DNA from: a virus
IMG/VR virus record: IMGVR_UViG_3300012642_000011
Location: 256,001-320,000 of that record
Direction: 5' to 3' (one strand)
DNA length: 64,000 nt
Shown here: positions 8,183 through 62,970 of the stretch, one piece after another
How the letters are laid out: each line of letters starts with the position of its first letter
Numbering within the stretch: position 1 is the stretch's first letter
The notes under the pieces: model-generated
The model's database searches: none
Seen by the model: only the letters and a program-made list of their open reading frames with translations
Told to the model about the DNA's origin: nothing
Position numbers and translations under genes: made by a program

Positions 8183-8488
8183 TCATACGTTCACGATGGT
8201 GGCGTTCTTCATGTGCTGGTCGTAGGCGTCCACGATGATAGCGGCCAGCTGACCACGCTCGCTCACGTCGTAGCCGTTCTTGATGGCCCACGCTCGGATG
8301 GTGGCCGTGGTGGTCTTGGGGCGGTAGGAGGGGTTCTCGTCACGGAACTGGGCCACGAGATCCTTGGACAGACGACCACGGACGCTGACCTCGATGCCCT
8401 TGGACTTGGCCCACTGGCGGATGTCAGCGGCAGCCGAACGGCCAGCGATGAGGGTCTTGTCCTCGTTGTACTTGCGCTTGGTGGTCAT
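8183..8488 (-). CDS. Lsr2-like DNA-binding protein, two tandem C-terminal-type domains
   Basis: Two copies of the Lsr2 C-terminal motif (IRQWAKSKGIEVSVRGRLSKDLVAQF and IRAWAIKNGYDVSERGQLAAIIVDAY) with the RGR AT-hook-like core. Conserved leader/promoter. Confidence 0.75.
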   Translation of the reverse strand: MTTKRKYNEDKTLIAGRSAAADIRQWAKSKGIEVSVRGRLSKDLVAQFRDENPSYRPKTTTATIRAWAIKNGYDVSERGQLAAIIVDAYDQHMKNATIVNV

Positions 8489-8713
8489 GGTCTCTCCTAG
8501 GAGTAGTGGTTGGTGTTGAGATTGGCCCCTGTGGCCTCGCTGTTTGCTCTCAACCTGATGAATCAATAGTAGCACGGGGGACGCTCCATGTGCAACATGT
8601 GCAGCACGAATAATCTCGGGATAGTCGCAGCCCTCTATTGGATCACGTAAACTCGTGATAGTATGCTCACACATACCTATGGGGACACATAACTTGCTGT
8701 AAATAGTCAGGTA

Positions 8714-8751
8714 GCACAGTAGTGGTTTTCCTACTGTGCTACCTGACTTTA
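8714..8751. terminator. conserved hairpin AGTCAGGTAGCACAGTAG-N8-CTACTGTGCTACCTGACT after hexapeptide gene 1
   Basis: Near-identical copies at 10978-11018, 12510-12550, 13215-13258, each just 3' of a hexapeptide-repeat paralog. Confidence 0.65.
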
Positions 8752-8762
8752 TTTATTCGGAA

Positions 8763-9488
8763 TCAGGTCGCACAATCGTTTCCGGTCAACTTTGCATAAT
8801 CACACACTTGTGCGTTGCCAGACACTTGTGCATTTCCGGCCACAAATGCACAATCGTACACTTGTGCGTTACCGGACACTTGTGCGCTGTCTGTTACTTC
8901 TGCATCGTCAGATACCTGTGTATTACCAGTCACTTGAGCGTTGTCATAAATAAATGCTTCACCGGATACTCGTGCTTTACCAGACACCCGTGCGTTACCT
9001 GCCACGCGCGAGTTGCCATAAATTCGCGTGTTACCAGACACTCGCGCATTATCGTACACCTCTGCGTTGCCATATACTCGTGCGTTGTCATGCACAAGAG
9101 CGTCATCAAACACGTAAGCGTCGCCGGACACACAAGCGCTACCGTACACCGAAGCATTGCCAAATACCCAAGCGTTCTCGAACACTCGCGCGTTGCCGTA
9201 AACCCGCGAGTCCTCAGTGACGTATATGTTACCAAGCAACTCTGCGTTATCATACGCCTGAGCGTTCTCGTACACCCGAGCGTTATCAGTCACGTGCGCA
9301 TTGCCGTACACCTTCGCCTCATCATTGACCCATGCATTATCTGAGAGATTGTCCATGCTCTCCACATAACCGCCCAGATCCCCAGATTTCACCTCATGAT
9401 CGGGCAGGTCGCGTGTGGCTCGAATACGGTGGAGCGTTCGACCGTTGTAGTGAATCGTTTCATCTGTCAGTTCGTAATTCTTATTCAT
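8763..9488 (-). CDS. hexapeptide-repeat (beta-helix-like) protein with conserved N-terminal domain, paralog 1 of 6
   Basis: N-terminus MNKNYELTDETIHYNGRTLHRIRATRDLP...GDLGG, then about 30 consecutive V-x-[GDE]-[ND]-A-x hexapeptides. RBS CAAGGAGAAATC. Confidence 0.8.
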   Translation of the reverse strand: MNKNYELTDETIHYNGRTLHRIRATRDLPDHEVKSGDLGGYVESMDNLSDNAWVNDEAKVYGNAHVTDNARVYENAQAYDNAELLGNIYVTEDSRVYGNARVFENAWVFGNASVYGSACVSGDAYVFDDALVHDNARVYGNAEVYDNARVSGNTRIYGNSRVAGNARVSGKARVSGEAFIYDNAQVTGNTQVSDDAEVTDSAQVSGNAQVYDCAFVAGNAQVSGNAQVCDYAKLTGNDCAT

Positions 9489-9502
9489 GATTTCTCCTTG
9501 TA

Positions 9503-10258
9503 TTATTTAGTCCAGCGTGCGACACGGGCGCGGCACTGATCAATGACGGATTGGTACTCGGGACGTGCGTCACGAATGATTTCAGGGTCAGTGGTTTCAA
9601 CCCATGAATCCGAGTCGCAGAGGATCTGGTGATCATCAAGAGTGCCTGACTTGCAACCGATATGGAGAACATGATCATCCGTGGTGCGGTGCAGGGTCCA
9701 ATTGAATTGCCGATTGGTGCAGAGTGTGCCGATCATAATATGCTTTTCTTCAGCCACTCGCGCGTACCCAAACACGTGTGCGTTACCAAAAACTCGCGCG
9801 TACCCAAACACCCGTGCGTTACCACACACCCGTGCCCAATTGTACACTTGTGCGTCATCGGACACTTGTGCGTTGTCTGTTACTTCTGCATTCTCAAATA
9901 TGTGTGCCTTACCAGCCACTTGAGCTTTGTCATAAATAAATGCGTCATCGGACACTAGTGCGTCCCCGAACACTTGTGCGTCCCCGAACACTTGTGCGTT
10001 ACCGGACACGCGTGCGTTGCCATATACACGCGCGTCATCGTACACCAAAGCGTTCCCTGACACTCGTGCGTCATCGTACACCATCGCCTCATCAGCGACC
10101 CATGCGCTATCGGAGAGGTTGTCCAGATGTTCCACGAAGCCGCCCAGATCGCCGGGCTTTACAGCGTGGTAGGGTAGTTCTCGTGTTGCACGAATGCGGT
10201 GGAGCGTTCGACCGTCGTAGTGAATCGTTTCATCTGTCAGTTCGAAATGCTTATTCAT
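9503..10258 (-). CDS. hexapeptide-repeat protein paralog 2 (non-repeat C-terminal extension)
   Basis: Same N-terminal domain and hexapeptide repeats. Own promoter TTGCGC-18-TAGGGT. Only 14 nt from the downstream paralog. Confidence 0.8.
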   Translation of the reverse strand: MNKHFELTDETIHYDGRTLHRIRATRELPYHAVKPGDLGGFVEHLDNLSDSAWVADEAMVYDDARVSGNALVYDDARVYGNARVSGNAQVFGDAQVFGDALVSDDAFIYDKAQVAGKAHIFENAEVTDNAQVSDDAQVYNWARVCGNARVFGYARVFGNAHVFGYARVAEEKHIMIGTLCTNRQFNWTLHRTTDDHVLHIGCKSGTLDDHQILCDSDSWVETTDPEIIRDARPEYQSVIDQCRARVARWTK

Positions 10259-10467
10259 GGCGTCTCCTTGAAAATGGTAGGGATTATCTTATCAACGATC
10301 CTATGCTGCCCTTACCCTATCATATGGGACGCTCTATGCGCAACCTATTTCTTGTACTAATTGGGCTATATTGCGACAAGTGATGCCGAAGTTTACACAA
10401 GGGGACACAGTAGCGAAAACAGAGAACGGACAAGGCGACAGTCGATGCCACCTTGTCCGTTCTCTGA

Positions 10468-10779
10468 TCAGGCTGCGAGGTTGTAGTAATCCTTGAGGTC
10501 AGTGTTCTTGAACCCACCCATAGCGTGAGCGTTTCGCTCCGACATGGCCCACGTGCGGATCTTCTTGTTCTGGGTGCGGTGGAAGTAGTTCCGGTTCCGC
10601 TGGACTCGCGTTCCGAAGTTGACGATATCCTCGTAGTTCGCGTAGGTGGTGTTGTCCTTCTTGTTCTTGACACGATTGATGGTGCTCTCATCGGCGGGGA
10701 AAAGGTAGATGCCCTTGCCGGGAACGCGGATCTCGACATGACCCTTGACATCGGAAGCGAAGACCTGGAAGTTCTGCAT
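10468..10779 (-). CDS. divergent Lsr2-like protein 103 aa (RGR motif replaced by MGG)
   Basis: N-terminal HVEIRVPGKGIYLFP resembles the Lsr2 N-terminal domain. C-terminal KKIRTWAMSERNAHAMGGFKNTDLKDYY is an Lsr2-like DNA-binding motif without the Arg-Gly-Arg core. Conserved leader. Confidence 0.6.
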   Translation of the reverse strand: MQNFQVFASDVKGHVEIRVPGKGIYLFPADESTINRVKNKKDNTTYANYEDIVNFGTRVQRNRNYFHRTQNKKIRTWAMSERNAHAMGGFKNTDLKDYYNLAA

Positions 10780-11022
10780 AATCTCTCCTTGAGAGTGGTA
10801 AGGGTCGCTCTGTGTTGCTCTCCCTTGCTGATGAGTCAATAGTAACACGGGGGACGCTCCATGCGCAACCTGACAGCAGAAATAATCTAGGGAGGCTCAC
10901 AACCTCTCGATTGGATCACTTCAATTCGTGATAGTATGCTCACACATACCTATGGGGACACATAACTTGCTGTAAACAGTCAAGTAGCACAGTAGGGATA
11001 CAACTACTGTGCTACTTGGGTT

Positions 11023-11724
11023 TTACCACCTGCAATCAAACCAATTAATTTCATCAGTAACTATTGCATTACCGGACACCCGCGAGTTACCAATCACCCG
11101 CGCATATTCGCAAACCCTCGAACAACCAGTCACTATTGCATTACCTGACACCAATGCTCTGTCTGTCACTTGTGCATTACCATTCACCATTGCTCTTTCA
11201 GAGACCAGTGAATTACCAAATACCTGTGCGTCACCCCTCACTATCGCGTCATCGATAACCCTTGTTTTGCCGTGTACACGAGCATTGCCAGACACATGCG
11301 CATGACCGAACACCCACGCTTCATCGAATACTCGTGCAGAGATATATACATATGCGTAACCGAACACCCGTGCGTCACCATAGACCCACGCTTCACCGGA
11401 CACTGATGAATTACCACTCACCAATGCGTTGCCGAAAACCCGCGCACTATTGTACACATGTGCAGTACCAGTCACCAATGCATTACCGGACACCATTGCC
11501 TTACCATTCACTTTTGCGCCCCCTGATACCCGCGCGTCCCCGTACACCATAGCCTCGCCACCGACCCATGCGATATCTGAAAGGTTATCCAAACGCTCCA
11601 CAAAACCACCCAGATCACCTGACTTTACGCGGTGCTCGGGCAAGTCTTGCGTGGCGCAGATACGATGGAGCGTGTGTCCTTCATAGCGGATCGTCTCATT
11701 TGTTAGTTCAAAGTGTTTAGTCAT
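11023..11724 (-). CDS. hexapeptide-repeat protein paralog 3
   Basis: Conserved N-terminal domain plus hexapeptide repeats. RBS GAGGAAAACC. Confidence 0.8.
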   Translation of the reverse strand: MTKHFELTNETIRYEGHTLHRICATQDLPEHRVKSGDLGGFVERLDNLSDIAWVGGEAMVYGDARVSGGAKVNGKAMVSGNALVTGTAHVYNSARVFGNALVSGNSSVSGEAWVYGDARVFGYAYVYISARVFDEAWVFGHAHVSGNARVHGKTRVIDDAIVRGDAQVFGNSLVSERAMVNGNAQVTDRALVSGNAIVTGCSRVCEYARVIGNSRVSGNAIVTDEINWFDCRW

Positions 11725-11825
11725 GGTTTTCCTCGTGAAGTAATGATCTTTGTTTATTTCCTATAGTAGATTTTTAGATTTTCCATCGGATTATTTCATT
11801 TCTTGATCAGGTTACTCACAGACGC

Positions 11826-13268: not shown

Positions 13269-14084
13269 TCAGGTCGCTCGTTCGTTACCTAACACTCGTG
13301 CGTAACCATACACCAGCGCGTTGTCGGTCACCCATGCATCACCCTGCACCTGAGCGTTGTCTTCCACTCGCGCATAGGTGAGCACGCATGCGTTACCAAA
13401 CACTCGCGCGTTACCGGACACTCGCGCATAGTCAGTCACTTGCGCGTTATCGTACACCATTGCACCACCGAACACCTGAGCGTTACCGGACACCTGTGCC
13501 TCACCGAACACTTGGGCGTTACGAGATACCCACGCGTTACCGGACACCACTGCATCGCCGTACACTTGTGCGTCTTCATCAATATATGCACCACCGAACA
13601 CCTGAGCGTTACCGTACACTCGGGCGCAATCGGACACTCGTGCGTTATCGTACACTCGCGCGTCGCAAAGCACTAGCGCGTTACCCGTCACTCGCGCGTT
13701 ACCGGACACTCGCGCATAGTCAGTCACTTGCGCGTTATCGTACACCATTGCACCACCGAACACCTGAGCGTTACCGGACACCTGTGCCTCACCGAACACC
13801 CAAGCGTAACCGAACACTCGCGCGTCGTCGCCAATATATGCCTTACCGAACACCCATGCATCATTGGATACCCGTGCGTTACCAGATACCAGCGCGTTAC
13901 CAAACACATACGCCTCATCAGCAACCCATGCATCATCTGAAAGGTTGTCCAGACGCTCCACGTAACCACCCAGATCCCCAGCCTTCACATCATGATCGGG
14001 CAGATCTCGTGTCGCACGGATACGATAGAGCGTTCGACCGTAGCGGATGATGGTATCGTTTGTCAGTTCGAAGTGCTTGCTCAT
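13269..14084 (-). CDS. hexapeptide-repeat protein paralog 6 (longest, internal duplication)
   Basis: Conserved N-terminal domain plus repeats. Internal near-identical segment duplication (GNAQVFGGAMVYDNAQVTDYARVSGNARV twice). Confidence 0.8.
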   Translation of the reverse strand: MSKHFELTNDTIIRYGRTLYRIRATRDLPDHDVKAGDLGGYVERLDNLSDDAWVADEAYVFGNALVSGNARVSNDAWVFGKAYIGDDARVFGYAWVFGEAQVSGNAQVFGGAMVYDNAQVTDYARVSGNARVTGNALVLCDARVYDNARVSDCARVYGNAQVFGGAYIDEDAQVYGDAVVSGNAWVSRNAQVFGEAQVSGNAQVFGGAMVYDNAQVTDYARVSGNARVFGNACVLTYARVEDNAQVQGDAWVTDNALVYGYARVLGNERAT

Positions 14085-18995: not shown

Positions 18996-19337
18996 TCAGG
19001 CGTGAGCGGCCTTGTAGGCGTCGATCACGTCCTTGGGGAAGCGGCCACGGGTGCCGACCTTGTAGCCGTTCGCCTTGGCCCACTCGCGGACCTTGGCGGC
19101 GTCCTGACCCACCTTCAGGTCGGGGTTGACCTTGTAGGAGCGGACGACGCGGCGGACGGAGTTCTCGATGATCTTGTCGGACTTCTCGATCAGGAACGTC
19201 TCGTCCTTGATCTTCTCCACGGACTTGGAGTTCAGGGGAACCTCGTACACACCCTTGTTGGGGATGCGCACCTGAACCAGCTTGGCACCCATCTGCTTGG
19301 TGATCGCGTCCTGCAGGAAAGCCTGGGTCTTCGTCAT
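18996..19337 (-). CDS. lsr2: Lsr2-like nucleoid-associated protein
   Basis: C-terminal [32 protein letters not shown] is the canonical Lsr2 DNA-binding motif. N-terminal oligomerisation-like domain. Conserved leader/promoter. Confidence 0.85.
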
Positions 19338-19580
19338 GATTTTCTCCTTGATGAGAGTATTTCGGGATTGCTCTGTGTTGCTCTCCCTTGCTGATGAATC
19401 AAATGTACCACAGGGGACGCTCCATGTGCAACATGATTTCCGAAGATCGTGGAACTTTTCTACCCGTGAGAACAAAAGGCAGCATGAAGACCACACACAG
19501 ACAACCCACAGGGGACACAAGATGAGAGCAACAAGAAAGGGTGTGGACGTTTGTATGCGGCCACACCCCTCTTTGATCAA

Positions 19581-20674: not shown

Positions 20675-21832
20675 TCAGCGACGGTTCAAGTACGCATTGA
20701 AGGCAAGAGACAGCGGCTTGATGAGAGGACGTGACCACTCGCCGTGAGTCTGCACCACGTCAGCGCCCACAGCCGTCTTGAACATGGTCAGGCCAGAAGT
20801 CTTGCCGTTCGCCTTCAATGATCCCGGCACGCCGATCAGGTCATACCACTTGCACCCATACTTCACGGCGTCAGAGATCATCTCCCACTGAACAGCGCGG
20901 GAAGCGTACATCTTACGATGCTCAGCACTGGAACCGCCGTACAGGTACCACAGAAAATCGCCCTGACGGATCGTGAGCGCTGCAGCAAGCGGAATGTCCT
21001 CGTGGTAAGCGACAATGACCTCAGCGTGGGCGATCTCCGAGCGATCAAAAACTTCAAGGAGACGCTCAAAGTAGGAGACAGGTCGGGGAGTGAACTGCTC
21101 ACGCTCTGCCGTCATCACATAGAGTGCGTGGAAATCATGCACGAGGGACGCTCCACGCTTGATGATCAGACCCTGCTTCAGAGACTTGCGCGTTTCGGAT
21201 CGAGAGGTCTGGTTCATGCGCATGAGGACGCTCTCGGCATCTGACTCAATCGGAATGCGTGCTTGAAACATGGGCTGACCATTACCGAAGTCCTCTTCGA
21301 TAGAAGGCTCCTTGAATCCAGCGCGAACCATGTCTGATTCAATGGAGATCTGGCGATAATCCACATCTGCCTGAAGTTCCATCAGGTGCTCGTACTGGTC
21401 GTCCTTGAGTGCCTTGCGTACCACGTCAGCATCCCAACGTCGGACAGTCTCAGGAAGACCCAGACGGAGTTCGAACGCACCAGTCTTCTTCACGTAGGAA
21501 GTCAGGGCAGGGAGCACATCAGAGATATGCACATCTGCGTTTACTACAGGACCTTCACTGATGTAGGCCAGAGACAGGTTGCCGATCACAGGGATCTTGT
21601 TCACGACAGGAAGCGGGCGGTAGAGGATCAGGGACGCTCCAACCAGAACGTCCTCATGGTAGATGCCTACGGACTCGTTGCGCCACTCGCTCTTGACCTC
21701 ACCCCAGTGTGGGTTCTGCAGGAAGGATGCAGCAGGACGGGTAGACAGATATGCCTCATGCTGATCTGCGGTGATAGCGCGGATCGTGTAGTCCTTGTTT
21801 GCCTTGATTGGCTTGGTTGCGGTAGCGGTCAT
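20675..21832 (-). CDS. FemAB-family / GNAT-fold aminoacyltransferase-like protein 385 aa
   Basis: Length and overall pattern resemble FemABX-type (Acetyltransf_6) proteins. The assignment is not verified. RBS TGAGGAAACT. Hairpin 20624-20664 at the stop. Confidence 0.8.
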   Translation of the reverse strand: MTATATKPIKANKDYTIRAITADQHEAYLSTRPAASFLQNPHWGEVKSEWRNESVGIYHEDVLVGASLILYRPLPVVNKIPVIGNLSLAYISEGPVVNADVHISDVLPALTSYVKKTGAFELRLGLPETVRRWDADVVRKALKDDQYEHLMELQADVDYRQISIESDMVRAGFKEPSIEEDFGNGQPMFQARIPIESDAESVLMRMNQTSRSETRKSLKQGLIIKRGASLVHDFHALYVMTAEREQFTPRPVSYFERLLEVFDRSEIAHAEVIVAYHEDIPLAAALTIRQGDFLWYLYGGSSAEHRKMYASRAVQWEMISDAVKYGCKWYDLIGVPGSLKANGKTSGLTMFKTAVGADVVQTHGEWSRPLIKPLSLAFNAYLNRR

Positions 21833-22029: not shown

Positions 22030-22187
22030 TCAGTGACCCTGCGCCGCGTTGGCGGCGGCCACGACGGCGAATGGCTCGCCCTCGAAGGAGGTGTGGGTCT
22101 CACCCACCTTCACCGCCACGGCGGCGGAGGCAAGGGCCTCCACGTTGCCGATGGTGATGGCCTTGTTGTTGAGGATGATCTCCATGA
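22030..22187 (-). CDS. small protein 52 aa (MEIILNNKAITIGNVEALASAAVAVKVGETHTSFEGEPFAVVAAANAAQGH)
   Basis: Manual translation. Below the ORF-track cutoff. Conserved promoter/leader 22190-22270. Hairpin 21990-22028. Confidence 0.5.
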
Positions 22188-31421: not shown

Positions 31422-31622
31422 ATGAAGGAAACTTTCAACCAGCCCGCCGCCCAGTGGACCTGCGATTGCGGCACCCTGGTGGAGCGGTGGCGCGGGCAGT
31501 CGGATGTCCAGTGCTACAACTGCGGCCAGTGGTACAACGCCTTCGGTCAGCGTCTGGTGAGCAACTGGGCCAGCGCCGCCCGCATGGCCGAGTACGGCGA
31601 GGTGTGGGACGAGGACTACTGA
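31422..31622 (+). CDS. small zinc-ribbon-like protein 66 aa (CDC...CYNC)
   Basis: Conserved + leader 31350-31420 (CTCAAGGAGAGAGCATC). Promoter TTGACA-18-AATGAT. Confidence 0.7.
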   Translation: MKETFNQPAAQWTCDCGTLVERWRGQSDVQCYNCGQWYNAFGQRLVSNWASAARMAEYGEVWDEDY

Positions 31623-36224: not shown

Positions 36225-37229
36225 TCACTCACCATGCTTGGCAAGGAACTTGTTGTTGATGGCCTTGAAGTTGGCACGGTCGCCGGTCTCAGCGAACTCC
36301 TTGCCCTCACGGTTCCACCACACCACGCCCTCAGCCTGCACCTTGGGGTTGATCGTGGAGGTCATGCCGTTCACCTGCTCCACGGCCTGCTCTACAGTCT
36401 CAGGGAGAACAAGGTCGAGGTGCGGGACGGAATGCTTCTCCACGAAGGCGTCGAATGCCTCATCGGCAACAGGGGAAGACGCGGAGAACACCAGAAGACG
36501 GTTACCCTGAATCTTCAGCTTGTTGCCCTGAATTCCCTCGCCCACAATCTCGCCCTGAATGATAGCACCCTCGGGCATGATCTCTGCAAGACCAAGACGC
36601 TCCGCCATCTTCGCCTGCATAGACTCCGTGGGGTGAAGCGTCCAGTTGCGCCCTGCCACCACGATCTCGCCCTCACGCTTGAGGAACGTGGAGGACGTAC
36701 CATCCACCTTCTCCGTAGCAAACCACTCGTTGCGGTCAAGGGAGGCAAGGAACTCATCGGAGAGGTTCTGCACGCGCTCAGAATCGGTCTTACGAACACC
36801 ATGAGGGAACGGGTCCACCATCTGACCACCCATGGGAATCGGAGGCTCGAACTTGAACACGCCCAGACGCTCCGCCACAGCATCCACTTCGGACTGTGTG
36901 GAGTCAGCGTTCAGACCGAATCCCAGCGGGAGGATAAGACCCTGAGAGAACACGCCGCGCAGCTTCATGGTGCGGAGGACATGCCCACGAACGGTCTGCC
37001 CGTTGGGGGACGTGGCATCCTTGGAGGACTTCGCAGACAGGAAGGAGAACTCCGGCACGTCAGCGGGAAGGAAGGCGTCGATCTCGAAATAGAGAACAGG
37101 CTGACCAGCCTTGAACTCACCCTTCTTCACGACAGACTTCCAGCCGCCGATGGTGGCGACCTCGATAGCGTCAGCGTTCTCGATGGGATCGATTCCATCG
37201 ATCTTCTTGATGCTCATCATCTTGCGCAT
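36225..37229 (-). CDS. ATP-dependent RNA ligase, Rnl5 family (NgrRnl/DraRnl-like)
   Basis: Nucleotidyltransferase motif I EKVDGTS (KxDG). N-terminal domain KKIDGIDPIENADAIEVATIGGWKSVVKKGEFKAG. EPPIP, KTDSERVQNL, GRNWTL, IQGEIVGEGIQGN, FKAINNKFLAKH all parallel NgrRnl-type ligases as I recall them. RBS AAGGAGAGTGGAAT. Confidence 0.9.
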   Translation of the reverse strand: MRKMMSIKKIDGIDPIENADAIEVATIGGWKSVVKKGEFKAGQPVLYFEIDAFLPADVPEFSFLSAKSSKDATSPNGQTVRGHVLRTMKLRGVFSQGLILPLGFGLNADSTQSEVDAVAERLGVFKFEPPIPMGGQMVDPFPHGVRKTDSERVQNLSDEFLASLDRNEWFATEKVDGTSSTFLKREGEIVVAGRNWTLHPTESMQAKMAERLGLAEIMPEGAIIQGEIVGEGIQGNKLKIQGNRLLVFSASSPVADEAFDAFVEKHSVPHLDLVLPETVEQAVEQVNGMTSTINPKVQAEGVVWWNREGKEFAETGDRANFKAINNKFLAKHGE

Positions 37230-38573: not shown

Positions 38574-39416
38574 TCACCACGCGGGAGCACCCACGGGGAG
38601 GTTGGTGATGCCACACGTGCTCACAGCATCCGACAGAGCGGCCCGCTCAGCGTTGGTCACAGCGAGATCGTACTTGGACTTCACAGCGATCTGATGGGCG
38701 GCGATCAGGCAGCTACCGGAAGCGGAAGGAGCCTGCCACTCATCGAAAGAGTCATCGGACTTATCCTGATTCACCTTGGACGCCGTGGGAGCAAGGTTCA
38801 GAGGATCGTTGGCGATCTGGTAGCGCATGTCAGGGGAAGCCCATGCGTGAGCGCCGGAGTCCCACGCGTTGGAGAGAGCAACAATGTGGTCGATCTGAAT
38901 GCTCTTGGACACCTCATCTGCCGTGGTGGCAGAGATAGTCTTTCCCGTGTAGGGGTCAACCATCGTGCCGGAGAGCACACGGCACTTCGCGTTCACCTCA
39001 GCATCCGGCATGGCGGCGATCAGGGTCTCATCACGGGTATCACAGCCGTCCTTGTCGAAATCCATCCACGATCCGAACAGAGCCTCACGCTCGCCAGAGT
39101 AACCAGCGGCCTTGGCACCGTCGTAAGTGTCCAGAGCGTTCAGGGCCTCCATGGCATCCATCCCCGTGTAGGAGGAACCATCGAAGGAGGCATCAGAAGA
39201 GGACTCTCCACCAACCGCCTCAGACAGAGCATCCTTGCCCTTGTCCAGCATGGAGTCGATCTTCGCCTTGCCCTCGTCAAGCAGGGCGTCCGTGGCAGAG
39301 GAAGCAGCCTCAGTGGCCGTGCTCTCCACGGTGCTCTGAATGGTCTGGCAACCAGTGGCCGTCATGGCGGCGAGGGTGAGGGTGATGCCAGCGGTGATCT
39401 TCTTGAGCGTCTTCAT
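38574..39416 (-). CDS. lipoprotein with C-terminal DUF1524/HNH-type nuclease domain
   Basis: Signal peptide plus lipobox-like LAAMTATGC. C-terminal GCDTRDETL...DPYTG...IDHIVALSNAWDSGAHAW...NDPLNLAPTASKVNQDKSD matches the DUF1524 (GmrSD-C-like HNH) pattern. RBS CAGGAGAGACC. Confidence 0.8.
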   Translation of the reverse strand: MKTLKKITAGITLTLAAMTATGCQTIQSTVESTATEAASSATDALLDEGKAKIDSMLDKGKDALSEAVGGESSSDASFDGSSYTGMDAMEALNALDTYDGAKAAGYSGEREALFGSWMDFDKDGCDTRDETLIAAMPDAEVNAKCRVLSGTMVDPYTGKTISATTADEVSKSIQIDHIVALSNAWDSGAHAWASPDMRYQIANDPLNLAPTASKVNQDKSDDSFDEWQAPSASGSCLIAAHQIAVKSKYDLAVTNAERAALSDAVSTCGITNLPVGAPAW

Positions 39417-40724: not shown

Positions 40725-40861
40725 GGTGGAAGGATACCCTAGTGTCTGTCTGTTGTCAACATGTTACGGTCATGGGGACACAGGAATGGTTGTGCTGAAA
40801 GATCAAATCGAGGAGGGAGAGCGTCGATACTCTCCCTCCCCGATTCTTGACTTACACCTTG

Positions 40862-45761: not shown

Positions 45762-46595
45762 ATGATGATGCAGGCTGAGATCTTCAAGACCGTGGAGACC
45801 ACGAAGAAGGTTGCTATCTCTGGCGATTGGCACGGTGATACCACGTGGGCGCTGGATATGATCAGGGCTGTCCATGATCGTGGCATCAAGGTCATCCTCC
45901 ACGTTGGTGACTTCGGGATCTGGCCGGGCAAGTCGGGTGCATCGTATCTGCGCAAGGTGAACAATGCTCTTGCTGATCGTGGTATGATCCTTCTGCTGAC
46001 TGCTGGCAACCATGAGGACTACACTCAGATCGGCAAGGCTGAGCAGGTGGAGGGCATGCCCGATGGGTTCAAGGCGCGTGCTCATGCTCCCCATGTGATC
46101 ATCCTTGATCGTCCGACTCGTTGGATGATGGGGGGACGCTCTTTCATCTCCGTGGGCGGTGCGAACAGCATTGACTTTCAGGGTGGCACCTTAGGCAAGG
46201 ATTACTGGCTGGACGAGCAGATCACGGATGAGCAGGTGGATCTTGCCCGTGAGGGTGGTCACGCTGAAATCATGATCTCTCATGATACTGCTACAGGCGT
46301 CATGGACGGCATCGTGGATTCTGCCTCCGAGTGGACGGAAGAGGGCTTTAAGTACGCTCAGAAGTCCTCTGACCAGTTGAAGCGCATCACGGACGATGTT
46401 CGCCCCGTGGTGAACTTCTTCGGGCACTACCACAGGTTCATTAACCGCACTGTGACGCTGCGCGTTCCGTTCATGGGCGATTACGCTATGCGTGCTGTGT
46501 GCTTGGACATGCAGAGGCGTGCTGGCAACACTGTCATCTTCGACATTGAGGCCATGCGCATTGATGAGGTCTCCATCTGGGGGCTGCGAGTGTGA
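45762..46595 (+). CDS. calcineurin-like metallophosphoesterase (lambda-phosphatase / Pnkp phosphoesterase-like)
   Basis: Motifs GDWHGD, VGDFGIW, GNHE, GHYH. RBS AGAAGGAGGA before ATGATGATG. Terminator 46599-46642. Confidence 0.85.
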   Translation: MMMQAEIFKTVETTKKVAISGDWHGDTTWALDMIRAVHDRGIKVILHVGDFGIWPGKSGASYLRKVNNALADRGMILLLTAGNHEDYTQIGKAEQVEGMPDGFKARAHAPHVIILDRPTRWMMGGRSFISVGGANSIDFQGGTLGKDYWLDEQITDEQVDLAREGGHAEIMISHDTATGVMDGIVDSASEWTEEGFKYAQKSSDQLKRITDDVRPVVNFFGHYHRFINRTVTLRVPFMGDYAMRAVCLDMQRRAGNTVIFDIEAMRIDEVSIWGLRV

Positions 46596-52777: not shown

Positions 52778-53050
52778 TCAGACGATGGCCTGCTGGTTCA
52801 AGGTGTCCGTGTTGATCAGCCCGCTCTCCACGGACGCCTTGAACGCCTCTGAGAGCGGGAAGACCCCGTTCTGGGCCATCCTCAGGCCGGAGACGTAATC
52901 GCTGATCTCGTTGGAGTGACGGACGATCACGGTCGGGGAGGTGATGTTCTTCTCGCAGAAGTACATGTCGGACTGGACGCCGTTCACGGCCACGTTGCCG
53001 ACGAAGATGCAGTTGTGGCAGTCGTGCTGGAAGCGGGGGTGGATGCTCAT
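52778..53050 (-). CDS. hypothetical protein 90 aa
   Basis: Conserved leader CTCAAGGAGAGAAC and promoter. Confidence 0.75.
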   Translation of the reverse strand: MSIHPRFQHDCHNCIFVGNVAVNGVQSDMYFCEKNITSPTVIVRHSNEISDYVSGLRMAQNGVFPLSEAFKASVESGLINTDTLNQQAIV

Positions 53051-54361: not shown

Positions 54362-54447
54362 GGTCTCTCCTTGGGAGTTATGCTCTCAATTGCTCTGATG
54401 CTCCGATTCTACCATGGGGGACGCTCCATGTGCAAACCATTCCTTCA

Positions 54448-57197: not shown

Positions 57198-57211
57198 AGG
57201 GACACAGAATG

Positions 57212-59325: not shown

Positions 59326-59445
59326 TGCTGGTGAGGTGGGACCAGATCTAAAAGGTCATACCTATCGTGAATGAGGGACACAAGTTTTCATGTAAACAGA
59401 AAGCGGGAGTGAGCGTTGTTCTCACTCCCGCTTTCTAAACCACTG

Positions 59446-59757
59446 TCAGGATGCCTTCAGGGCCTTTGCCTCAGCATGAGCGACGTTGATGCCTGCCACG
59501 TAACCGTTGATGGCGGCGTTCAGGATGGTATCCACCTGCTCGTAGTTGCTTTCAGTACGAGGCGTGGGGCACTCCACGAAGAACTCACCACGCCATTCGA
59601 GGTAGACGTTGTAGCCAGAGCCGTTCTCCACGGACTCTGCCCAGCCTTCGACATCGGAAGCGAAGGCTCCTGAGTAGATGCCGAGGTTATCCGTGTTCTT
59701 GCCGTTGTTTCGGGCTTCCTCGTTCGCGTAGTAATCCGTGGCAATCGCGTAGCGCAT
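59446..59757 (-). CDS. hypothetical protein 103 aa
   Basis: RBS CAAGGGAGAGAAAA. Terminator 59402-59444. Confidence 0.7.
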   Translation of the reverse strand: MRYAIATDYYANEEARNNGKNTDNLGIYSGAFASDVEGWAESVENGSGYNVYLEWRGEFFVECPTPRTESNYEQVDTILNAAINGYVAGINVAHAEAKALKAS

Positions 59758-59845
59758 TTTTCTCTCCCTTGAAAGATGTGGTGTTGCTTTCAGTAGTAAG
59801 CATACCTCATGCAAGGGTGCTTTGCAAGCAGAGGGGACGCTCCAT

Positions 59846-60091
59846 TCACTTCAGGAAGACGATGACCTCTTCCTTCTTCGTGATTGCCTTGTCTGGTTCG
59901 AGGGTCACGAGGCTTTCAGATGCCTTCTTCACCATCTTGAATGCAAGGGCAATCCCTCCGAGTACCATGATGACCAAGGAGATCAGCAGCCCTGCCTGAA
60001 GAGAGTCAGGCCAGCAAATCGCGTTCACGGCACAAGTGAGGAAGAGGGCTACAGTGGTGATGATGTATGCTTCAGGGGCGTAGCGGAGCAT
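59846..60091 (-). CDS. membrane protein about 81 aa
   Basis: Two hydrophobic helices. Start set at the ATG (MLRYAPEA) rather than the TTG track start. Confidence 0.6.
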   Translation of the reverse strand: MLRYAPEAYIITTVALFLTCAVNAICWPDSLQAGLLISLVIMVLGGIALAFKMVKKASESLVTLEPDKAITKKEEVIVFLK

Positions 60092-60280
60092 GGAGGTGCC
60101 TTTCAATGAGGAGTCTCTTCTATCGTTATCAGTCTATGCTACCATAACGGCCAAGCATCTTTGCGAGAACGCGGCATGGGGAATAGGGGGACACAGGATT
60201 GATCAGTGTTTCATGTCTGGGATGCTGAAGGGGGCAGGAGAGGTGTTCTACTCTCCTGCCCCTTCGCCGCAGACGACTAC

Positions 60281-60637
60281 TCAGAGTTCGGTGGAAAGAG
60301 CGCGGGCTACTCCCTTGCTGATATCCTCCATGAGATCACCATGGCGAGTGTACAGATCGTCCCAGATACGATCGTTCAGCGCACCGAAAGAACTCTGAAG
60401 AGATGTGAGATGATTGATCTGGGCACCACTCATATCGTTCAAGATATAATGAGCAGCCCTACAATCCTCATCATCAGGGTAGACCTGATCGATGGCATCG
60501 TGGACATCATCAGCACTCAGAGGCGTGAAACCCTCTTCAGAGCCGATCTTATATGCAGAAATCAGGGCCGATTCGGCATCGGGGTTCTCCCTGATCAGCG
60601 CGTCAAGGCCAGGGTGTCCAGTGGGCTTACTCGTCAT
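60281..60637 (-). CDS. hypothetical acidic protein 118 aa
   Basis: ORF 60281..61030 trimmed to the ATG with RBS CAGGAGAGAAA. Terminator 60228-60278. Confidence 0.7.
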   Translation of the reverse strand: MTSKPTGHPGLDALIRENPDAESALISAYKIGSEEGFTPLSADDVHDAIDQVYPDDEDCRAAHYILNDMSGAQINHLTSLQSSFGALNDRIWDDLYTRHGDLMEDISKGVARALSTEL

Positions 60638-60817
60638 TTTCTCTCCTGTGGGAATCGGATCTTTACTAACAGGATCTACTATACACCAGATCACTGCACT
60701 TAACAACCTATAGGGACGCTCCGCATGAAGACGAATCACTATCGTCATGATGGTTGACAATATGGAGCCTATGTGAGATATTGAAAGTGTCCTGACAACG
60801 AAAGCAAAGGGAAGACC

Positions 60818-61024
60818 ATGAAGATCAACGATGCCTCTGTCGAGGAGTTCCGTAACAAGTTCTGGCATGCCAACCACATCAATCCTCGCTCGTGGGAGGT
60901 GCTGACTGAGGATGACCATGATCTGTGGCGTGATCGCTACCAGAAGTTCATCAACGGGGAGTCCTTCACGATGCCCAACGGATTCAAGACGAAGGGGATC
61001 ACCCTCACCAGCGTGAGCAACTGA
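60818..61024 (+). CDS. hypothetical protein 68 aa
   Basis: RBS AAAGGGAAGACC. Terminator 61040-61082. Confidence 0.7.
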   Translation: MKINDASVEEFRNKFWHANHINPRSWEVLTEDDHDLWRDRYQKFINGESFTMPNGFKTKGITLTSVSN

Positions 61025-61093
61025 CCACACCTGAACTCACAAGCGGGATACGATGGAGTGTTTCATCGTATCCCGCTTTCTTTCCTACTCATA

Positions 61094-61102
61094 GGGGACA
61101 CA
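61094..61102 (+). repeat. GGGGACACA intergenic motif
   Basis: GGGGACACAATATTCAG. Confidence 0.8.
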
Positions 61103-61170
61103 ATATTCAGAACTAAAGCAAAAAGGAGAGGGAGACCATGATGCTATGGTCTCCCTCTCGCGTTTAGCGA

Positions 61171-61830
61171 TCACACAGCGGTCAGAAGGGACTGCACAAC
61201 GTCAGCGTTCGTGATCACGGGGGCAGGGGTGACAGGGAAGGGCTTCACCTTAGTCTTGGTGTGTGCCGACTGGTAGGCGAGGATCACCTGATTACGCAGC
61301 CGCCCAGTGTCAGCCACGGTGTACCCGTTGTCCTTGGCCCATGCGCGAATCTTGGCGGCGTTACGGTTCTTCCCCTTCTTGCTGGGCGACTTGATGAAGC
61401 GATCATCCTTGAAACCGTAAGCCTGAGCGTAGGCGATCAAGAGATCATTGGACAGGCGACCACGATCAGCGGTGGTGTAACCGTTCTCCTTGCCCCATTC
61501 ACGAATCAGAACGGAGTCAGGGACATGCTTGGTCTTGGTGGTCTTGACCTTCTCTTCCTTGGTGTTCAGGACATGGATGCGACCACCAGTGATGCTCTCG
61601 TCAACGGGGCAACCGTGAGCGACGTAGGACTCGACCACGGAGCGGTGCAGACGGCCACGGGTGCCGGTCTGGATACCCTGAGACTTGGCCCATGCCCGCA
61701 CCTGAACGGCGTTGTACGCGACGCCCTCCTTGTCTGCATACGTGGTGATCTGGGAGATCAGGTTGTGGAACTTGGCATCCACCTTCTCATCGGAAATGGA
61801 GTAGGTGGTGTTGTTGATGGTGATGTTCAC
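61171..61830 (-). CDS. Lsr2-like protein with three tandem DNA-binding domains (GTG start)
   Basis: Three repeats: VQVRAWAKSQGIQTGTRGRL, LIREWGKENGYTTADRGRL, AKIRAWAKDNGYTVADTGRL. RBS AAAGGATCATC before GTG. Terminator 61118-61160. Confidence 0.8.
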   Translation of the reverse strand: MNITINNTTYSISDEKVDAKFHNLISQITTYADKEGVAYNAVQVRAWAKSQGIQTGTRGRLHRSVVESYVAHGCPVDESITGGRIHVLNTKEEKVKTTKTKHVPDSVLIREWGKENGYTTADRGRLSNDLLIAYAQAYGFKDDRFIKSPSKKGKNRNAAKIRAWAKDNGYTVADTGRLRNQVILAYQSAHTKTKVKPFPVTPAPVITNADVVQSLLTAV

Positions 61831-61995
61831 GATGATCCTTTGTTCGTGTGCTCTGTTGTGTACTGATCCCATCCTATAACACCGGAGAAGTCAATGCAAC
61901 ATGTGATTCCATTGGTGCGTCATCTGTCGTCATATTTAATGGGGACACAGAATGAGAGCATGCGAGCACTTGGTGAGAGTGCTTGCTCATGGTGG

Positions 61996-62157
61996 TTACG
62001 TGTTGGCAACTACCATCATGCGCCCCACAAGGAATGCCCCGATGATAGCGGAGACAATAAGCATCATGGGGTTGAAGGCATTCAGATAGAAAAATGCGGC
62101 CACACCGATGGCGTTCAAGGTGACGAAGAGAATGTAAAGGAGGGAAATAAATCGCAT
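61996..62157 (-). CDS. small membrane protein 53 aa
   Basis: ORF trimmed to the ATG with RBS AAGAAAGATCATC. Confidence 0.5.
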   Translation of the reverse strand: MRFISLLYILFVTLNAIGVAAFFYLNAFNPMMLIVSAIIGAFLVGRMMVVANT

Positions 62158-62248
62158 GATGATCTTTCTTACAAGCAATGGAAGTGTACTTCCACAGTAT
62201 AGCACAAAACTCCCCTCCGTGTACAAACGGAGGGGAGTTTTTAGCGGG

Positions 62249-62476
62249 TCAGTGATCTGCGATCTGCATTACCACGGCCCAATGGTCGCCAGCATCCTGT
62301 GCTGACCACGACTGGACGTACTGGTTGAGCTTTCGCTTGGGGAGGTTGGGGATCTGGTTGTTGGTGAACATGTCAGTGGCAATCTTTGCTGCCTCATGCT
62401 TGTTCGCCACGTCCATGGGCGAACCGTTCTTTCGAATGGTCTTGCCCACGTTGTGCTTGATGATGATGTTCGTCAT
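62249..62476 (-). CDS. hypothetical protein 75 aa
   Basis: RBS AAAGGAGGACATC. Hairpin 62207-62244. Confidence 0.75.
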   Translation of the reverse strand: MTNIIIKHNVGKTIRKNGSPMDVANKHEAAKIATDMFTNNQIPNLPKRKLNQYVQSWSAQDAGDHWAVVMQIADH

Positions 62477-62622
62477 GATGTCCTCCTTTGACTTCTATAT
62501 TATACCATGTGGACGCTCCATACACAAGTGCCGACTCCACATGTATAATCTTGCAATGGTGTACATATAACGAGAAAGAGTGATCCCCCTACACCATTCA
62601 GGCGAGGGGGATCACTCAGGAC

Positions 62623-62970
62623 TCACTTGTTGTGAGCGGCGCGGTAACGCTTCACGGTGTCACGGGACAGACGGCCACGCTTGCCCTTCTCGATCAGGCC
62701 CTTCTCCTCAGCCCACGCGCGGATCTCGGCGGCGGAGTCGGAGACCACAACGGTATCCTTATCGGTGAACTGGTACTTCTTGCGGATCTTGTTCTTCAGG
62801 ATCTTCTCGGCGTTCTCAGCCACGAACTTGGGGTCCTGGACCTTGGTGGCGGACTTGGCGTTCAGCGGGACGATGTAGATACCCTTGTTCGGGATCAGCA
62901 CCTCCACGGGCTTGGCACCCATCTGCTTGGTGATCGCGTCCTGCAGGAACTTCTTCTGGGTCTTGGTCAT
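62623..62970 (-). CDS. lsr2: Lsr2-like nucleoid-associated protein
   Basis: N-terminus [37 protein letters not shown]-terminus AAEIRAWAEEKGLIEKGKRGRLSRDTVKRYRAAHNK. Paralog of 18996..19337. RBS GAAAGGAAGCATC. Confidence 0.85.
   Translation of the reverse strand: MTKTQKKFLQDAITKQMGAKPVEVLIPNKGIYIVPLNAKSATKVQDPKFVAENAEKILKNKIRKKYQFTDKDTVVVSDSAAEIRAWAEEKGLIEKGKRGRLSRDTVKRYRAAHNK

What the first reader, a model, noticed from the sequence alone, without database searches (positions are those of the whole stretch)
8183..62970. Five Lsr2-like paralogs, including a triple-DNA-binding-domain form and a two-domain form
18996..19337 and 62623..62970 are full Lsr2 homologs with an N-terminal oligomerisation-like domain and the C-terminal I-R-x-W-A...G.RGR motif. 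8183..8488 has two tandem C-terminal-type domains. 61171..61830 has three. Lsr2 is the actinobacterial H-NS analogue that silences AT-rich foreign DNA. So many phage copies with multiplied DNA-binding modules suggests the phage manipulates host xenogeneic silencing or coats its own AT-rich regulatory DNA. The A/T tails of the GGGGACACA motif and the UP-like AATAATCT elements are obvious candidate targets. This also argues for an actinobacterial host.
Basis: partly seen in the sequence, partly recalled or inferred. Interest (0 to 1): 0.6.

Follow-up and report, generated by a model that had tools for sequence, protein, structure and literature searches.

The report
Lsr2-type DNA-binder family, giant actinophage
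A stretch of a very large, uncultured virus of actinobacteria encodes a whole family of small proteins related to the bacterial DNA-coating silencer Lsr2, some with two or three DNA-binding modules. This is an unusually large set of a known protein type whose role in viruses is still unknown.

Summary
The observation largely holds. Four minus-strand genes at the stated coordinates carry seven copies of the Pfam Lsr2 DNA-binding domain (PF23359): A 8183-8488 has 2, B 18996-19337 has 1, C 61171-61830 has 3, and D 62623-62970 has 1.

Exhaustive six-frame profile scans find no fifth intact copy in the window. A degenerate relative, E (10468-10779), has a B/D-like N-terminus, a relic IRTWA and no RGR. 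A further gene, F (N-terminal domain plus 2 DNA-binding domains), starts about 50 bp outside the left edge.

The N-terminal domains of B, D and F fail Pfam's Lsr2 dimerisation model. They link to it only weakly through F (hhalign P 2.5e-5).

The element is a 332-437 kb metagenomic contig. It is probably a jumbo phage of an actinobacterium.

Tandem Lsr2 DNA-binding domains are not unique. At least 156 protein clusters in public data have 2-6 copies, including RefSeq Rhodococcus, Amycolatopsis and Streptomyces proteins. I found no paper describing them and no clear case in isolated phages.

My best reading is a phage-made, graded-valency Lsr2 chromatin set that coats the phage's own lower-GC DNA and pre-empts host Lsr2. 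That function is inferred, not shown. Interest is moderate.

The parts
8183..8488 (-). Gene A, 101 aa: two tandem Lsr2 DNA-binding domains and no N-terminal domain. Stop codon included.
   Evidence: ORF. PF23359 with two stretches, E 8e-26. RBS AGGAGAG before the ATG. The gene is conserved in other metagenomes: P0004 is 95% identical.
8333..8443 (-). A domain 1 (about aa 16-52), loop SVRGRL.
   Evidence: In strain variant P0004 the loop reads SVHGRL.
8207..8320 (-). A domain 2 (about aa 57-94), loop SERGQL. RGR has degenerated to RGQ.
8579..8595 (-). Conserved upstream box TTGCACATGGAGCGTCC, promoter-like, about 107 nt before the start of A.
   Evidence: Exact match. There are 21 matches in the window against 0.25 expected. 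Aligned with the other boxes.
10468..10779 (-). Gene E, 103 aa: candidate degenerate fifth paralog. It has a B/D-type N-terminal hairpin (aa 14-40) and a relic DNA-binding domain (KIRTWAM..., aa 68-103) that lacks RGR.
   Evidence: Sequence. hmmsearch E 8e-4. hhalign P 1e-5, probability 82%. PF23359 E 0.057, below threshold. It has the same upstream box at 10852-10868.
18996..19337 (-). Gene B, 113 aa: divergent Lsr2-like N-terminal domain (aa 1-70, nt 19128-19337) plus one DNA-binding domain.
   Evidence: tblastn aligns residues 1-112 with the cluster J mycobacteriophage Lsr2-like protein at 34.5% identity, E 3e-7. GC3 is 0.92, rank 2 of 70 genes.
18999..19109 (-). B DNA-binding domain (aa 77-113), loop GTRGRF. 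It is 60% identical to the M. tuberculosis Lsr2 domain.
19415..19431 (-). Conserved upstream box, an exact copy, 94 nt before the start of B.
61171..61830 (-). Gene C, 219 aa from the GTG at 61830 (233 aa if the ATG at 61872 is used): a short N-terminal segment of about 40 aa plus three Lsr2 DNA-binding domains joined by basic linkers.
   Evidence: PF23359 with three stretches, E 5e-30. RBS. Gene calls of 219 and 233 aa both occur in metagenomes. An intrinsic terminator lies at 61126-61159.
61609..61716 (-). C domain 1, loop GTRGRL.
61417..61518 (-). C domain 2, loop ADRGRL.
61258..61365 (-). C domain 3, loop ADTGRL. RGR has degenerated to TGR.
62623..62970 (-). Gene D, 115 aa: a paralog of B (49% identity) with the same MTKTQ-type N-terminal domain (nt 62761-62970) plus one DNA-binding domain (nt 62626-62739, loop GKRGRL with a one-residue insertion).
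   Evidence: RBS AAAGGAAG. A hairpin at 62580-62614 followed by a T-run is read directly. GC3 is 0.89.

Best explanation
SHOWN
- The window is part of a 332-437 kb uncultured element.
- It carries a diversified family of small Lsr2-type proteins, each a separate gene with its own ribosome-binding site and, for most, a visible hairpin terminator.
- The architectures form a series:
  - N-terminal domain + 1 DNA-binding domain (B, D).
  - N-terminal domain + 2 domains (F, about 50 bp outside the window).
  - Short N-terminal segment + 3 domains (C).
  - 2 domains only (A).
  - N-terminal-like segment + dead domain (E).
- The copies are old: 29-56% identical to each other.

INFERRED from what is established for Lsr2 (the RGR loop inserted in the minor groove of AT-rich DNA, and N-terminal oligomerisation giving filaments and bridges)
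- These are abundant phage-made nucleoid proteins. They bind the most AT-rich DNA available in the infected cell.
- In a high-GC actinobacterium, that DNA is above all the phage's own 52%-GC genome.
- B, D and F share a private N-terminal domain. They would polymerise with each other, not with host Lsr2, to coat and bridge phage DNA.
- A and C are single-chain multivalent clamps. They bind or bridge without polymerising.
- E would be a DNA-blind cap that modulates the filaments.
- The net effect would be that the phage replaces host Lsr2 on its DNA with its own chromatin. This would escape xenogeneic silencing while keeping the organising role that host Lsr2 plays in mycobacteriophage replication zones.

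CONFIDENCE
- Lsr2-family DNA binders of a probable jumbo actinophage: about 0.9.
- The biological role as stated: about 0.35.
For: Family assignment and domain counts:
-.

The N-terminal domain is shared by B, D and F and is distinct from the canonical one:
- B and D are 49% identical.
- F matches the B/D N-terminal profile at E 3.4e-6.
- PF11774 is missed in B, D and F but found in the control proteins Redno2 gp56 and Bongo gp3.
- There is a weak, collinear link to canonical Lsr2 N-terminal domains: P 1.5e-3 without F, P 2.5e-5 with F, and F alone P 1e-7.

Likely high expression:
- The Lsr2-like genes have higher GC3 than other genes (ranks 2, 5, 7, 13 and 22 of 70; Mann-Whitney P 0.0018).
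- A, B and E sit behind a conserved box-plus-leader shared by 17 high-GC3 genes.

Phage and host:
- Phage-type RNA-repair genes and PHROG matches are present.
- RNA ligase is closest to ~190 kb Arthrobacter and Microbacterium phages.
- FemAB relatives are Actinomycetota.
- Lsr2 matches occur only in actinophages.

Literature:
- Host Lsr2 relocates to phage replication zones and is needed for them (PMC10066036).
- Lsr2-encoding phages have lower GC (PMC8612146).
- In the CgpS study the C. amycolatum N-terminal domain induced the silenced prophage, while the C. diphtheriae and M. tuberculosis ones did not (PMC5137423). This argues that a divergent N-terminal domain makes a separate polymer.
Against: - There are no binding, expression or localisation data.
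- The window has no pronounced AT-rich islands, so preferred targets on the phage are not evident.
- Host GC content is unknown.
- The N-terminal homology is weak, and both AlphaFold models had low confidence, so oligomerisation is not demonstrated.
- Two of seven domains have lost one arginine of RGR, and a strain variant of A has HGR. Some modules may therefore bind weakly or do something else.
- Tested mycobacteriophage lsr2 genes did not compensate for loss of host lsr2 (PMC10066036).
- No virion gene was seen in the 84 kb examined, so 'phage' is probable, not proven.
Confidence: 0.5

Rival explanations
1. Host-directed or competitor-directed silencers. The proteins bind AT-rich, horizontally acquired regions of the host chromosome (defence islands, resident prophages) or incoming rival phage DNA. 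They would shut down host defences or exclude superinfection, rather than organise the phage's own DNA.
For: - Lsr2 and CgpS targets in cells are AT-rich islands and prophages (PMC5137423).
- Dulberger et al. suggest that phage lsr2 genes may act in inter-phage competition or exclusion (PMC10066036).
- The window itself lacks strong AT-rich tracts, so the best targets may lie elsewhere.
- Possible fast change at the DNA-contact loops of A (5 nonsynonymous and 0 synonymous differences) would fit an arms race.
Against: - The host genome and its islands are unknown.
- The 5:0 count is not significant (P about 0.27 under neutrality).
- A 52%-GC genome of more than 300 kb replicating to high copy number would titrate any AT-preferring binder.
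- Nothing in the sequence gives specificity for host DNA.
Confidence: 0.2
2. Pure anti-silencers acting on the host protein. The phage proteins hetero-oligomerise with host Lsr2 through the N-terminal domain (B, D, F, E) and poison its filaments, in the manner of H-NST or truncated CgpS. A and C simply out-compete it at its sites.
For: - Overproducing an Lsr2-type N-terminal domain counter-silences CgpS (PMC5137423).
- Truncated N-terminal-only Lsr2 forms in lytic actinophages are proposed to be dominant negatives (PMC10066036).
- E looks like an N-terminal domain with a dead DNA-binding domain.
Against: - The N-terminal domain of B, D and F is so divergent that Pfam PF11774 misses it.
- In the CgpS experiments the C. 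diphtheriae and M. tuberculosis N-terminal domains did not induce CGP3, while the C. amycolatum one did.
- A poison does not need intact DNA-binding domains, yet 5 of 7 in-window domains, and both domains in F, keep RGR.
- Several paralogs and up to three domains are not needed for a poison.
Confidence: 0.15
3. Not Lsr2 at all. The RGR-containing repeats would be a different helix-loop-helix module (SAP, HeH or AT-hook-like) or chance similarity, and the ORFs would not be real genes.
For: Weak sub-threshold Pfam hits to Slx4, Ish1 and DNA_pol_B_thumb, which are SAP/HeH-like, at E 0.02-0.2. I place those families in the SAP/HeH-like class from my own knowledge.
Against: - PF23359 scores run from E 1e-16 to 5e-30.
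- The solved Lsr2 domain matches at E 4e-9.
- PHROG families named Lsr2-like match all four proteins.
- The genes have RBSs and terminators, show high codon bias, and recur in many metagenomes.
Confidence: 0.02

Closest known systems
Lsr2 of Mycobacterium and Streptomyces, and CgpS of the Corynebacterium glutamicum CGP3 prophage (xenogeneic silencers)
   Same: [quoted passage not shown] B's domain is 60% identical to the M. tuberculosis domain.
- B and D have the same two-part layout and length, about 113 aa.
- B aligns end to end with canonical proteins at 30-35% identity.
   Different: - The N-terminal domain is not recognised by Pfam PF11774. It begins with a private [18 protein letters not shown] segment.
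- The genes sit on a huge lytic-looking element, not a chromosome or prophage.
- There are six family members rather than the few (I believe one or two) typical of a chromosome or prophage.
Lsr2-like proteins of actinobacteriophages (e.g. cluster J Redno2 gp56, cluster M Bongo gp3; PHROG 1223 and 6269)
   Same: - They are phage-encoded Lsr2 homologs.
- The best full-length phage match of B is cluster J gp56 (34.5% identity).
- More than one copy per phage genome is already known, in 76 of 354 Lsr2-encoding phages (PMC8612146).
   Different: - Published surveys colour their domain counts only as 1 or 2 per genome (PMC8612146). Here there are 4 genes and 7 domains in the window, plus E and F.
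- The described phage variants are full-length, N-terminal-only truncations, and a Ku-Lsr2 fusion. Tandem DNA-binding domains are not among them.
- The PHROG profiles match only one domain at a time.
- Bongo gp3, which seemed to cover both domains of A, is a canonical N-terminal domain plus one DNA-binding domain.
Multi-domain 'Lsr2 family DNA-binding proteins' in actinobacterial genomes (e.g. Amycolatopsis azurea WP_400835914, Streptomyces WP_078875325, Rhodococcus koreensis WP_450143801, R. oxybenzonivorans WP_335743606)
   Same: - They carry two to six tandem PF23359 domains in one chain, with or without an N-terminal dimerisation domain.
- The Amycolatopsis and Streptomyces proteins have an N-terminal domain plus 3 DNA-binding domains, like C in outline.
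- DNA-binding-domain-only tandems like A are the commonest multi-domain form: 96 of 130 two-domain proteins lack a canonical N-terminal domain.
   Different: - They are cellular proteins, uncharacterised, and not close in sequence.
- C's only word-index hit is itself.
- The N-terminal segment of C shows no significant similarity to the canonical N-terminal domain (P 0.04-0.2).
H-NS family antagonists and paralogs on mobile elements (H-NST, Sfh, Hha/YdgT, Ler). These names are recalled from the literature and were not tested here.
   Same: The concept is the same: mobile elements carry altered copies of the host's silencer to tune or evade silencing. E (N-terminal-like segment plus a dead DNA-binding domain) resembles H-NST in logic (H-NST is described in PMC5137423).
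   Different: The protein fold and family are unrelated, and the hosts are Gram-negative. No homology exists; this is an analogy only.

Membership tests
Lsr2 family (Pfam PF23359 Lsr2_DNA-bd) | [quoted passage not shown] | tested here: met
   A scores 89.6 bits, B 60.1 bits and C 103 bits against a cut-off of 26.9. D scores 26.7 bits (E 3.4e-6), 0.2 bit under the cut-off, but is 49% identical to B. E fails at E 0.057.
Lsr2 family | An RGR 'AT-hook-like' loop that enters the minor groove. | tested here: met
   RGR is present in A1, B, C1, C2 and D, and in F1 and F2. It has degenerated to RGQ in A2 and TGR in C3, and is absent in E. The sequence motif was tested; its function was not.
Lsr2 family (Pfam PF11774 Lsr2 dimerisation domain) | An N-terminal dimerisation/oligomerisation domain recognised by the family profile. 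| tested here: inconclusive
   - There is no PF11774 hit at E <= 1 for A, B, C, D, E or F, while the control phage proteins score E 2e-14 and 2e-15.
- Profile-profile comparison gives B/D against canonical domains P 0.0015-0.004, in register. With F added, P is 2.5e-5 (75% probability). F against the canonical HMM gives P 1e-7.
- A has no N-terminal domain.
- For C's N-terminal segment, P is 0.04-0.2.
Lsr2 family | Preferential binding to AT-rich DNA, oligomerisation and bridging, and transcriptional silencing. | not testable with these tools
   This needs EMSA or DAP-seq, cross-linking or SEC-MALS, and reporter assays.
Lsr2 family | Distribution restricted to Actinobacteria and their mobile elements. 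| tested here: met
   All 561 phage records matching B and all 182 matching A, where a host or organism genus is named, are actinophages. FemAB and RNA ligase independently point to an actinobacterial host or large actinophages.
Truncated 'dominant-negative' phage Lsr2 (N-terminal domain only, under 80 aa; clusters BD, BK, EE, EH) | An N-terminal oligomerisation domain with no DNA-binding domain. | tested here: not met
   A, B, C and D all keep at least one DNA-binding domain. E is the nearest case, but it is 103 aa long with a relic domain.
Ku-Lsr2 fusion of cluster J mycobacteriophages | A Ku core followed by an Lsr2 C-terminal domain. | tested here: not met
   There is no significant Ku domain. 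D gives only a PF02735 hit at E 0.03, below threshold.

The most novel reading that the evidence does not exclude
A jumbo actinophage builds its own chromatin from a graded-valency toolkit of Lsr2 derivatives: polymerising forms with a private oligomerisation domain, single-chain two- and three-headed clamps, and a DNA-blind cap. This chromatin would form a protein-DNA compartment that organises replication of a genome over 300 kb and shuts out host Lsr2 and perhaps DNA-targeting defences. It would be a DNA-coating counterpart of the proteinaceous phage nucleus.
Probability: 0.12. Interest if true: 0.8.

Novelty: new variant of a known kind. Interest (0 to 1): 0.45.

Why it matters
Phage-encoded Lsr2 homologs are found in about 11% of actinophages, yet their role is unknown. 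The tested mycobacteriophage copies do not substitute for host Lsr2.

A single genome that carries a natural series of variants offers a ready-made structure-function set. The series covers one, two and three DNA-binding heads, forms with and without the oligomerisation domain, and one form with a dead head. It could be used to ask how valency and polymerisation set silencing, bridging and counter-silencing.

It also flags a widespread but undescribed class of tandem-head Lsr2 proteins in actinobacteria. And it adds an independent host clue for an uncultured element of over 300 kb.

Tried and rejected
1. A fifth intact paralog was sought with two six-frame HMM scans. None was found, and the marginal hit at 40743-40847 dropped to E 3.1 with the broad model.
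2. Nucleotide relatives were sought by megablast of 56 kb of the window against phages and of 25 kb against plasmids. There were no matches.
3. tblastn of C against phages at E 1e-3 gave nothing.
4. IMG/VR was searched with B and with the promoter-box 15-mer. Only single chance hits turned up.
5. The metagenome contig scan with the N-terminal alignment found nothing. The scan with C returned only unrelated single-domain Lsr2 loci, and L090 is a canonical cellular Lsr2.
6. The word-index homolog searches for C and B found only themselves or a 95% variant.
7. Structure predictions gave mean pLDDT 59 for B (about 45 in the N-terminal domain) and 46 for C. They were too poor for fold search, so no structural test of the N-terminal domain was possible.
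8. Bongo gp3 looked like a tandem-domain phage protein in tblastn. Pfam shows an N-terminal domain plus one DNA-binding domain, so it was rejected.
9. dN/dS was computed against strain variants. A shows 5 nonsynonymous and 0 synonymous changes, and B gives 0.35-0.65 from about 8-10 changes. These are too few to interpret.
10. Consensus sigma-70 and terminator scans around the genes gave counts near the shuffled expectation. The conserved box is therefore called promoter-like only by inference.
11. Skin-metagenome provenance: the sample names resemble those of Shen et al. 2023. The link could not be verified.

Full report
**What is in the sequence**

Pfam assigns each to PF23359, the Lsr2 DNA-binding domain, and to no other family at a significant level.

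| Gene | Coordinates | Size | Domain stretches | Pfam score |
|---|---|---|---|---|
| A | 8183..8488 | 101 aa | 2 | E 8e-26 |
| B | 18996..19337 | 113 aa | 1 | E 1.2e-16 |
| C | 61171..61830 (GTG) or ..61872 (ATG) | 219 or 233 aa | 3 | E 5e-30 |
| D | 62623..62970 | 115 aa | 1 | E 3.4e-6, 26.7 bits vs cut-off 26.9 |

- D is 49% identical to B over its whole length, so it belongs to the set.
- B's domain matches the solved Lsr2 DNA-binding domains 2KNG, 6QKP and 6QKQ at E 4e-9. It is 60% identical to the M. tuberculosis domain.
- The seven copies share invariant R, W, G and G positions.
- RGR is intact in five copies. It reads RGQ in A2 and TGR in C3.

**How many paralogs**

- A six-frame scan with an HMM built from the seven copies finds exactly these four ORFs. 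So does a second scan with an HMM built from the domains of 268 public proteins. The next best hits have E 0.08-0.5. The title's 'five' is therefore not borne out by intact domains.
- Searching with the N-terminal halves found a candidate fifth gene, E (10468..10779, 103 aa).
  - Residues 14-40 (VEIRVPGKGIYLFPADESTINRVKN) match the B/D hairpin (hmmsearch E 8e-4; hhalign P 1e-5).
  - Residues 68-80 keep KIRTWAM (PF23359 E 0.057).
  - The RGR loop reads MGG.
- Reading 10 kb beyond each end of the window revealed a further gene, F. It is 165 aa and lies at L080:10989-11486, which is about 50 bp outside the left edge on the same strand. It has an MTKTQ-type N-terminal domain and two intact domains (PF23359 E 4.6e-19).
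- The 8.5 kb beyond the right edge holds none.
- The family therefore has at least six genes in about 65 kb.
- The domain copies are 29-56% identical to each other, so these are old paralogs or separate acquisitions, not recent duplicates. D and F1 share a one-residue insertion and are the closest pair.

**The N-terminal domains**

- Pfam's Lsr2 dimerisation model (PF11774) does not hit any of the six proteins. It does hit the control phage proteins Redno2 gp56 and Bongo gp3 at E 2e-15 and 2e-14.
- Even so, tblastn aligns B end to end (residues 1-112, 34.5% identity) with the cluster J Lsr2-like protein. Many canonical Lsr2 proteins cover 96-98% of B.
- Profile-profile comparison of the B/D N-terminal domain with canonical ones gives a collinear alignment in register, at P 0.0015-0.004.
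- Adding F improves this to P 2.5e-5. F alone scores P 1e-7 against the canonical HMM and E 3.4e-6 against the B/D profile.
- I conclude that B, D and F carry a strongly divergent Lsr2-type N-terminal domain. This is probable, not proven.
- C's 40-residue N-terminal segment shows no significant similarity (P 0.04-0.2).
- A has no N-terminal domain.
- The AlphaFold models were too poor to help. B had mean pLDDT 59, about 45 in the N-terminal domain. C had mean pLDDT 46.

**What the element is**

- The same genes occur on metagenomic contigs of 332,269 bp and up to 437,576 bp.
- The window maps to 59.7-123.7 kb of contig k141_11150, reversed.
- There is no nucleotide match in INPHARED or PLSDB, and no relative of B and only chance promoter-box 15-mer hits in IMG/VR.
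- The window is a run of roughly 100-130 small genes (126 in my crude GC3/RBS-based call), many with strong AAAGGAGG-like RBSs. The five Lsr2-like genes I read in detail look monocistronic, with hairpin terminators.
- Recognisable genes include an RNA ligase, a Tpt1 RNA 2'-phosphotransferase, a HAD 'RNA repair' domain, a metallophosphoesterase, FemAB, a GmrSD_C/HNH nuclease and four YdcK beta-solenoid proteins. Many have PHROG matches.
- The RNA ligase is closest to ~190 kb Arthrobacter and Microbacterium phages, at about 40% identity.
- Of 68 cellular relatives of FemAB, 66 are Actinomycetota, led by Propionibacteriales and Nocardioidaceae.
- All phage records matching B (561) or A (182) are actinophages wherever a host genus is named.
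- A jumbo phage of an actinobacterium is therefore the best reading. No virion gene lies in the 84 kb I could read, so 'phage' is not proven.

**Are multi-head Lsr2 proteins new?**

- A full HMMER search of 1.84 billion cluster representatives with the domain profile found 7,930 proteins at E <= 1e-3. The top ranks are dominated by proteins with 2, 3, 4 or 6 matched stretches.
- Among the 268 proteins I retrieved, 112 have one domain, 130 have two, 22 have three, 3 have four and 1 has six. Most multi-domain proteins lack a canonical N-terminal domain.
- Named examples are RefSeq proteins annotated as Lsr2 family:
  - Rhodococcus oxybenzonivorans: six domains.
  - R. koreensis: four domains.
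  - Amycolatopsis azurea and Streptomyces sp.: N-terminal domain plus three domains.
- The architecture is therefore widespread in databases.
- I found no paper describing it. The surveys of phage Lsr2 report counts of one or two per genome, N-terminal-only truncations and a Ku fusion (PMC8612146; PMC10066036).
- PHROG profiles match only one domain at a time. The one apparent tandem case in an isolated phage, Bongo gp3, is a canonical protein.

**Expression clues**

- A, B and E (and, with more mismatches, F) lie 89-107 nt downstream of a conserved box, TTGCAC-ATGGAGCGTCCCC-nGTGGTAnnnT, followed by a conserved leader.
- The box has 21 matches in the window against 0.25 expected, and 20 of them are on the minus strand.
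- Genes behind this box have higher GC3 (median 0.80 against 0.69, P 1e-4).
- The five Lsr2-like genes as a group rank high in GC3 (P 0.0018).
- I read this as a co-regulated, heavily expressed class, which fits abundant nucleoid proteins. Recent import from a high-GC genome is less likely, because no close cellular homolog exists.
- C and D lack the box.

**Targets**

- The window averages 48% AT. The maximum is 71% over 100 bp, and no 200 bp window reaches 65%.
- Under my approximate gene calls, non-coding DNA is only 51% AT against 45% for coding DNA.
- GGGGACACA is real and striking: 51 copies, all on the plus strand, against 0.9 expected. Its A/T tail is only about 5 nt.
- AATAATCT is enriched (9 copies against 0.95 expected) and lies next to promoters. 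Nothing links it to Lsr2.

**Mechanism**

The molecular activity is inferred from the family: minor-groove binding of AT-rich DNA through RGR, and filament or bridge formation through the N-terminal domain.

The series of architectures suggests a division of labour:
- B, D and F would be polymerising forms. They use an N-terminal domain that is private to the phage, and so are unlikely to co-polymerise with host Lsr2. In the CgpS work, the C. amycolatum N-terminal domain induced the silenced prophage, while the C. diphtheriae and M. tuberculosis ones did not.
- A and C would be non-polymerising, multivalent single-chain clamps.
- E would be a DNA-blind modulator.

The most economical role is that the phage coats its own comparatively AT-rich genome with its own Lsr2 set. 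This would pre-empt host silencing while providing the organising function that host Lsr2 supplies to mycobacteriophage replication zones.

The rivals are host- or competitor-directed silencing, and poisoning of host Lsr2. They cannot be excluded and are scored separately.

**Verdict**

The count of five is not confirmed as stated, but the true family is larger (six genes, counting E and F).
- This is a new architectural and copy-number variant of a known kind. It is of moderate interest.

Noticed in passing
window, 51 sites (e.g. 157, 8681, 18913, 19511, 34293, 56260, 61094, 61941): GGGGACACA occurs 51 times, always on the plus strand (0.9 expected), in intergenic DNA whatever the orientation of the flanking genes. 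Upstream of plus-strand genes it directly precedes AATAATCT and a TTGACA hexamer. The strand lock is unexplained.
   Followed up: partly
window, 21 sites, 20 on the minus strand (e.g. 8579-8595, 10852-10868, 19415-19431, 54419-54435): A conserved promoter-like box, TTGCAC-ATGGAGCGTCCCC-nGTGGTAnnnT, with a conserved leader (CATCA..GGGAGAGCAACACAGAGC) lies 51-109 nt (mostly 83-94 nt) before the starts of 17 small genes. These genes have markedly higher GC3 (median 0.80 against 0.69, P 1e-4).
   Followed up: partly
L080:10989-11486 (equivalent to window -50..-547, minus strand): A sixth Lsr2-like gene, F (165 aa), lies just outside the window's left edge. It has an MTKTQ-type N-terminal domain and two intact DNA-binding domains, and it is the best bridge between the phage N-terminal domain and canonical Lsr2.
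   Followed up: yes
window 8183-8488 compared with L006:737-1042: A strain variant of gene A differs by five nonsynonymous and no synonymous changes. These include RGR to HGR in domain 1 and E to N next to RGQ in domain 2. There are too few changes to test selection.
   Followed up: partly
window 8763-9488, 9503-10258, 13269-14084 (minus strand), plus one more member: Four YdcK beta-solenoid/hexapeptide-repeat proteins are present. They match PHROG 5070 and 7964 at up to E 1e-99, and their relatives are scattered across phages of many phyla.
   Followed up: partly
window 36225-37229(-), 45765-46595(+), 38574-39416(-), 20675-21832(-); Tpt1 gene at L080:7442-7960: An RNA-repair style gene set is present: RNA ligase with a PHA02142 OB fold, Tpt1/KptA 2'-phosphotransferase, a HAD_SAK_2 domain and a metallophosphoesterase. 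There is also a GmrSD_C/HNH nuclease and a FemAB peptidyl-transferase whose nearest cellular relatives are Propionibacteriales.
   Followed up: partly
L080:15891-17102 and L080:18735-18935 (5-8 kb beyond the left edge of the window): A TnpB/OrfB_IS605 (Cas12f1-like) gene and a small protein with the Pfam Phage_gp86 domain lie in the flank.
   Followed up: no
whole window: The element is absent from INPHARED and PLSDB by megablast, and searches of IMG/VR with gene B and the promoter box found nothing. It recurs in many metagenome assemblies (ERZ27289831, ERZ1030804, JGI 3300012464, 3300012292 and 3300013412, and SHEN23-1_SAMN353... scaffolds). The last set may be the early-life human skin metagenomes of Shen et al. 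2023, but this is not verified.
   Followed up: partly
window 52778-53050(-), 31422-31619(+), 244-411(-), 5704-5913(-), 22030-22185(-): Several other very small genes have extreme GC3 (0.87-0.96) and no family match. Those on the minus strand share the same upstream box as the Lsr2-like genes A, B and E. They may be further abundant early proteins.
   Followed up: no
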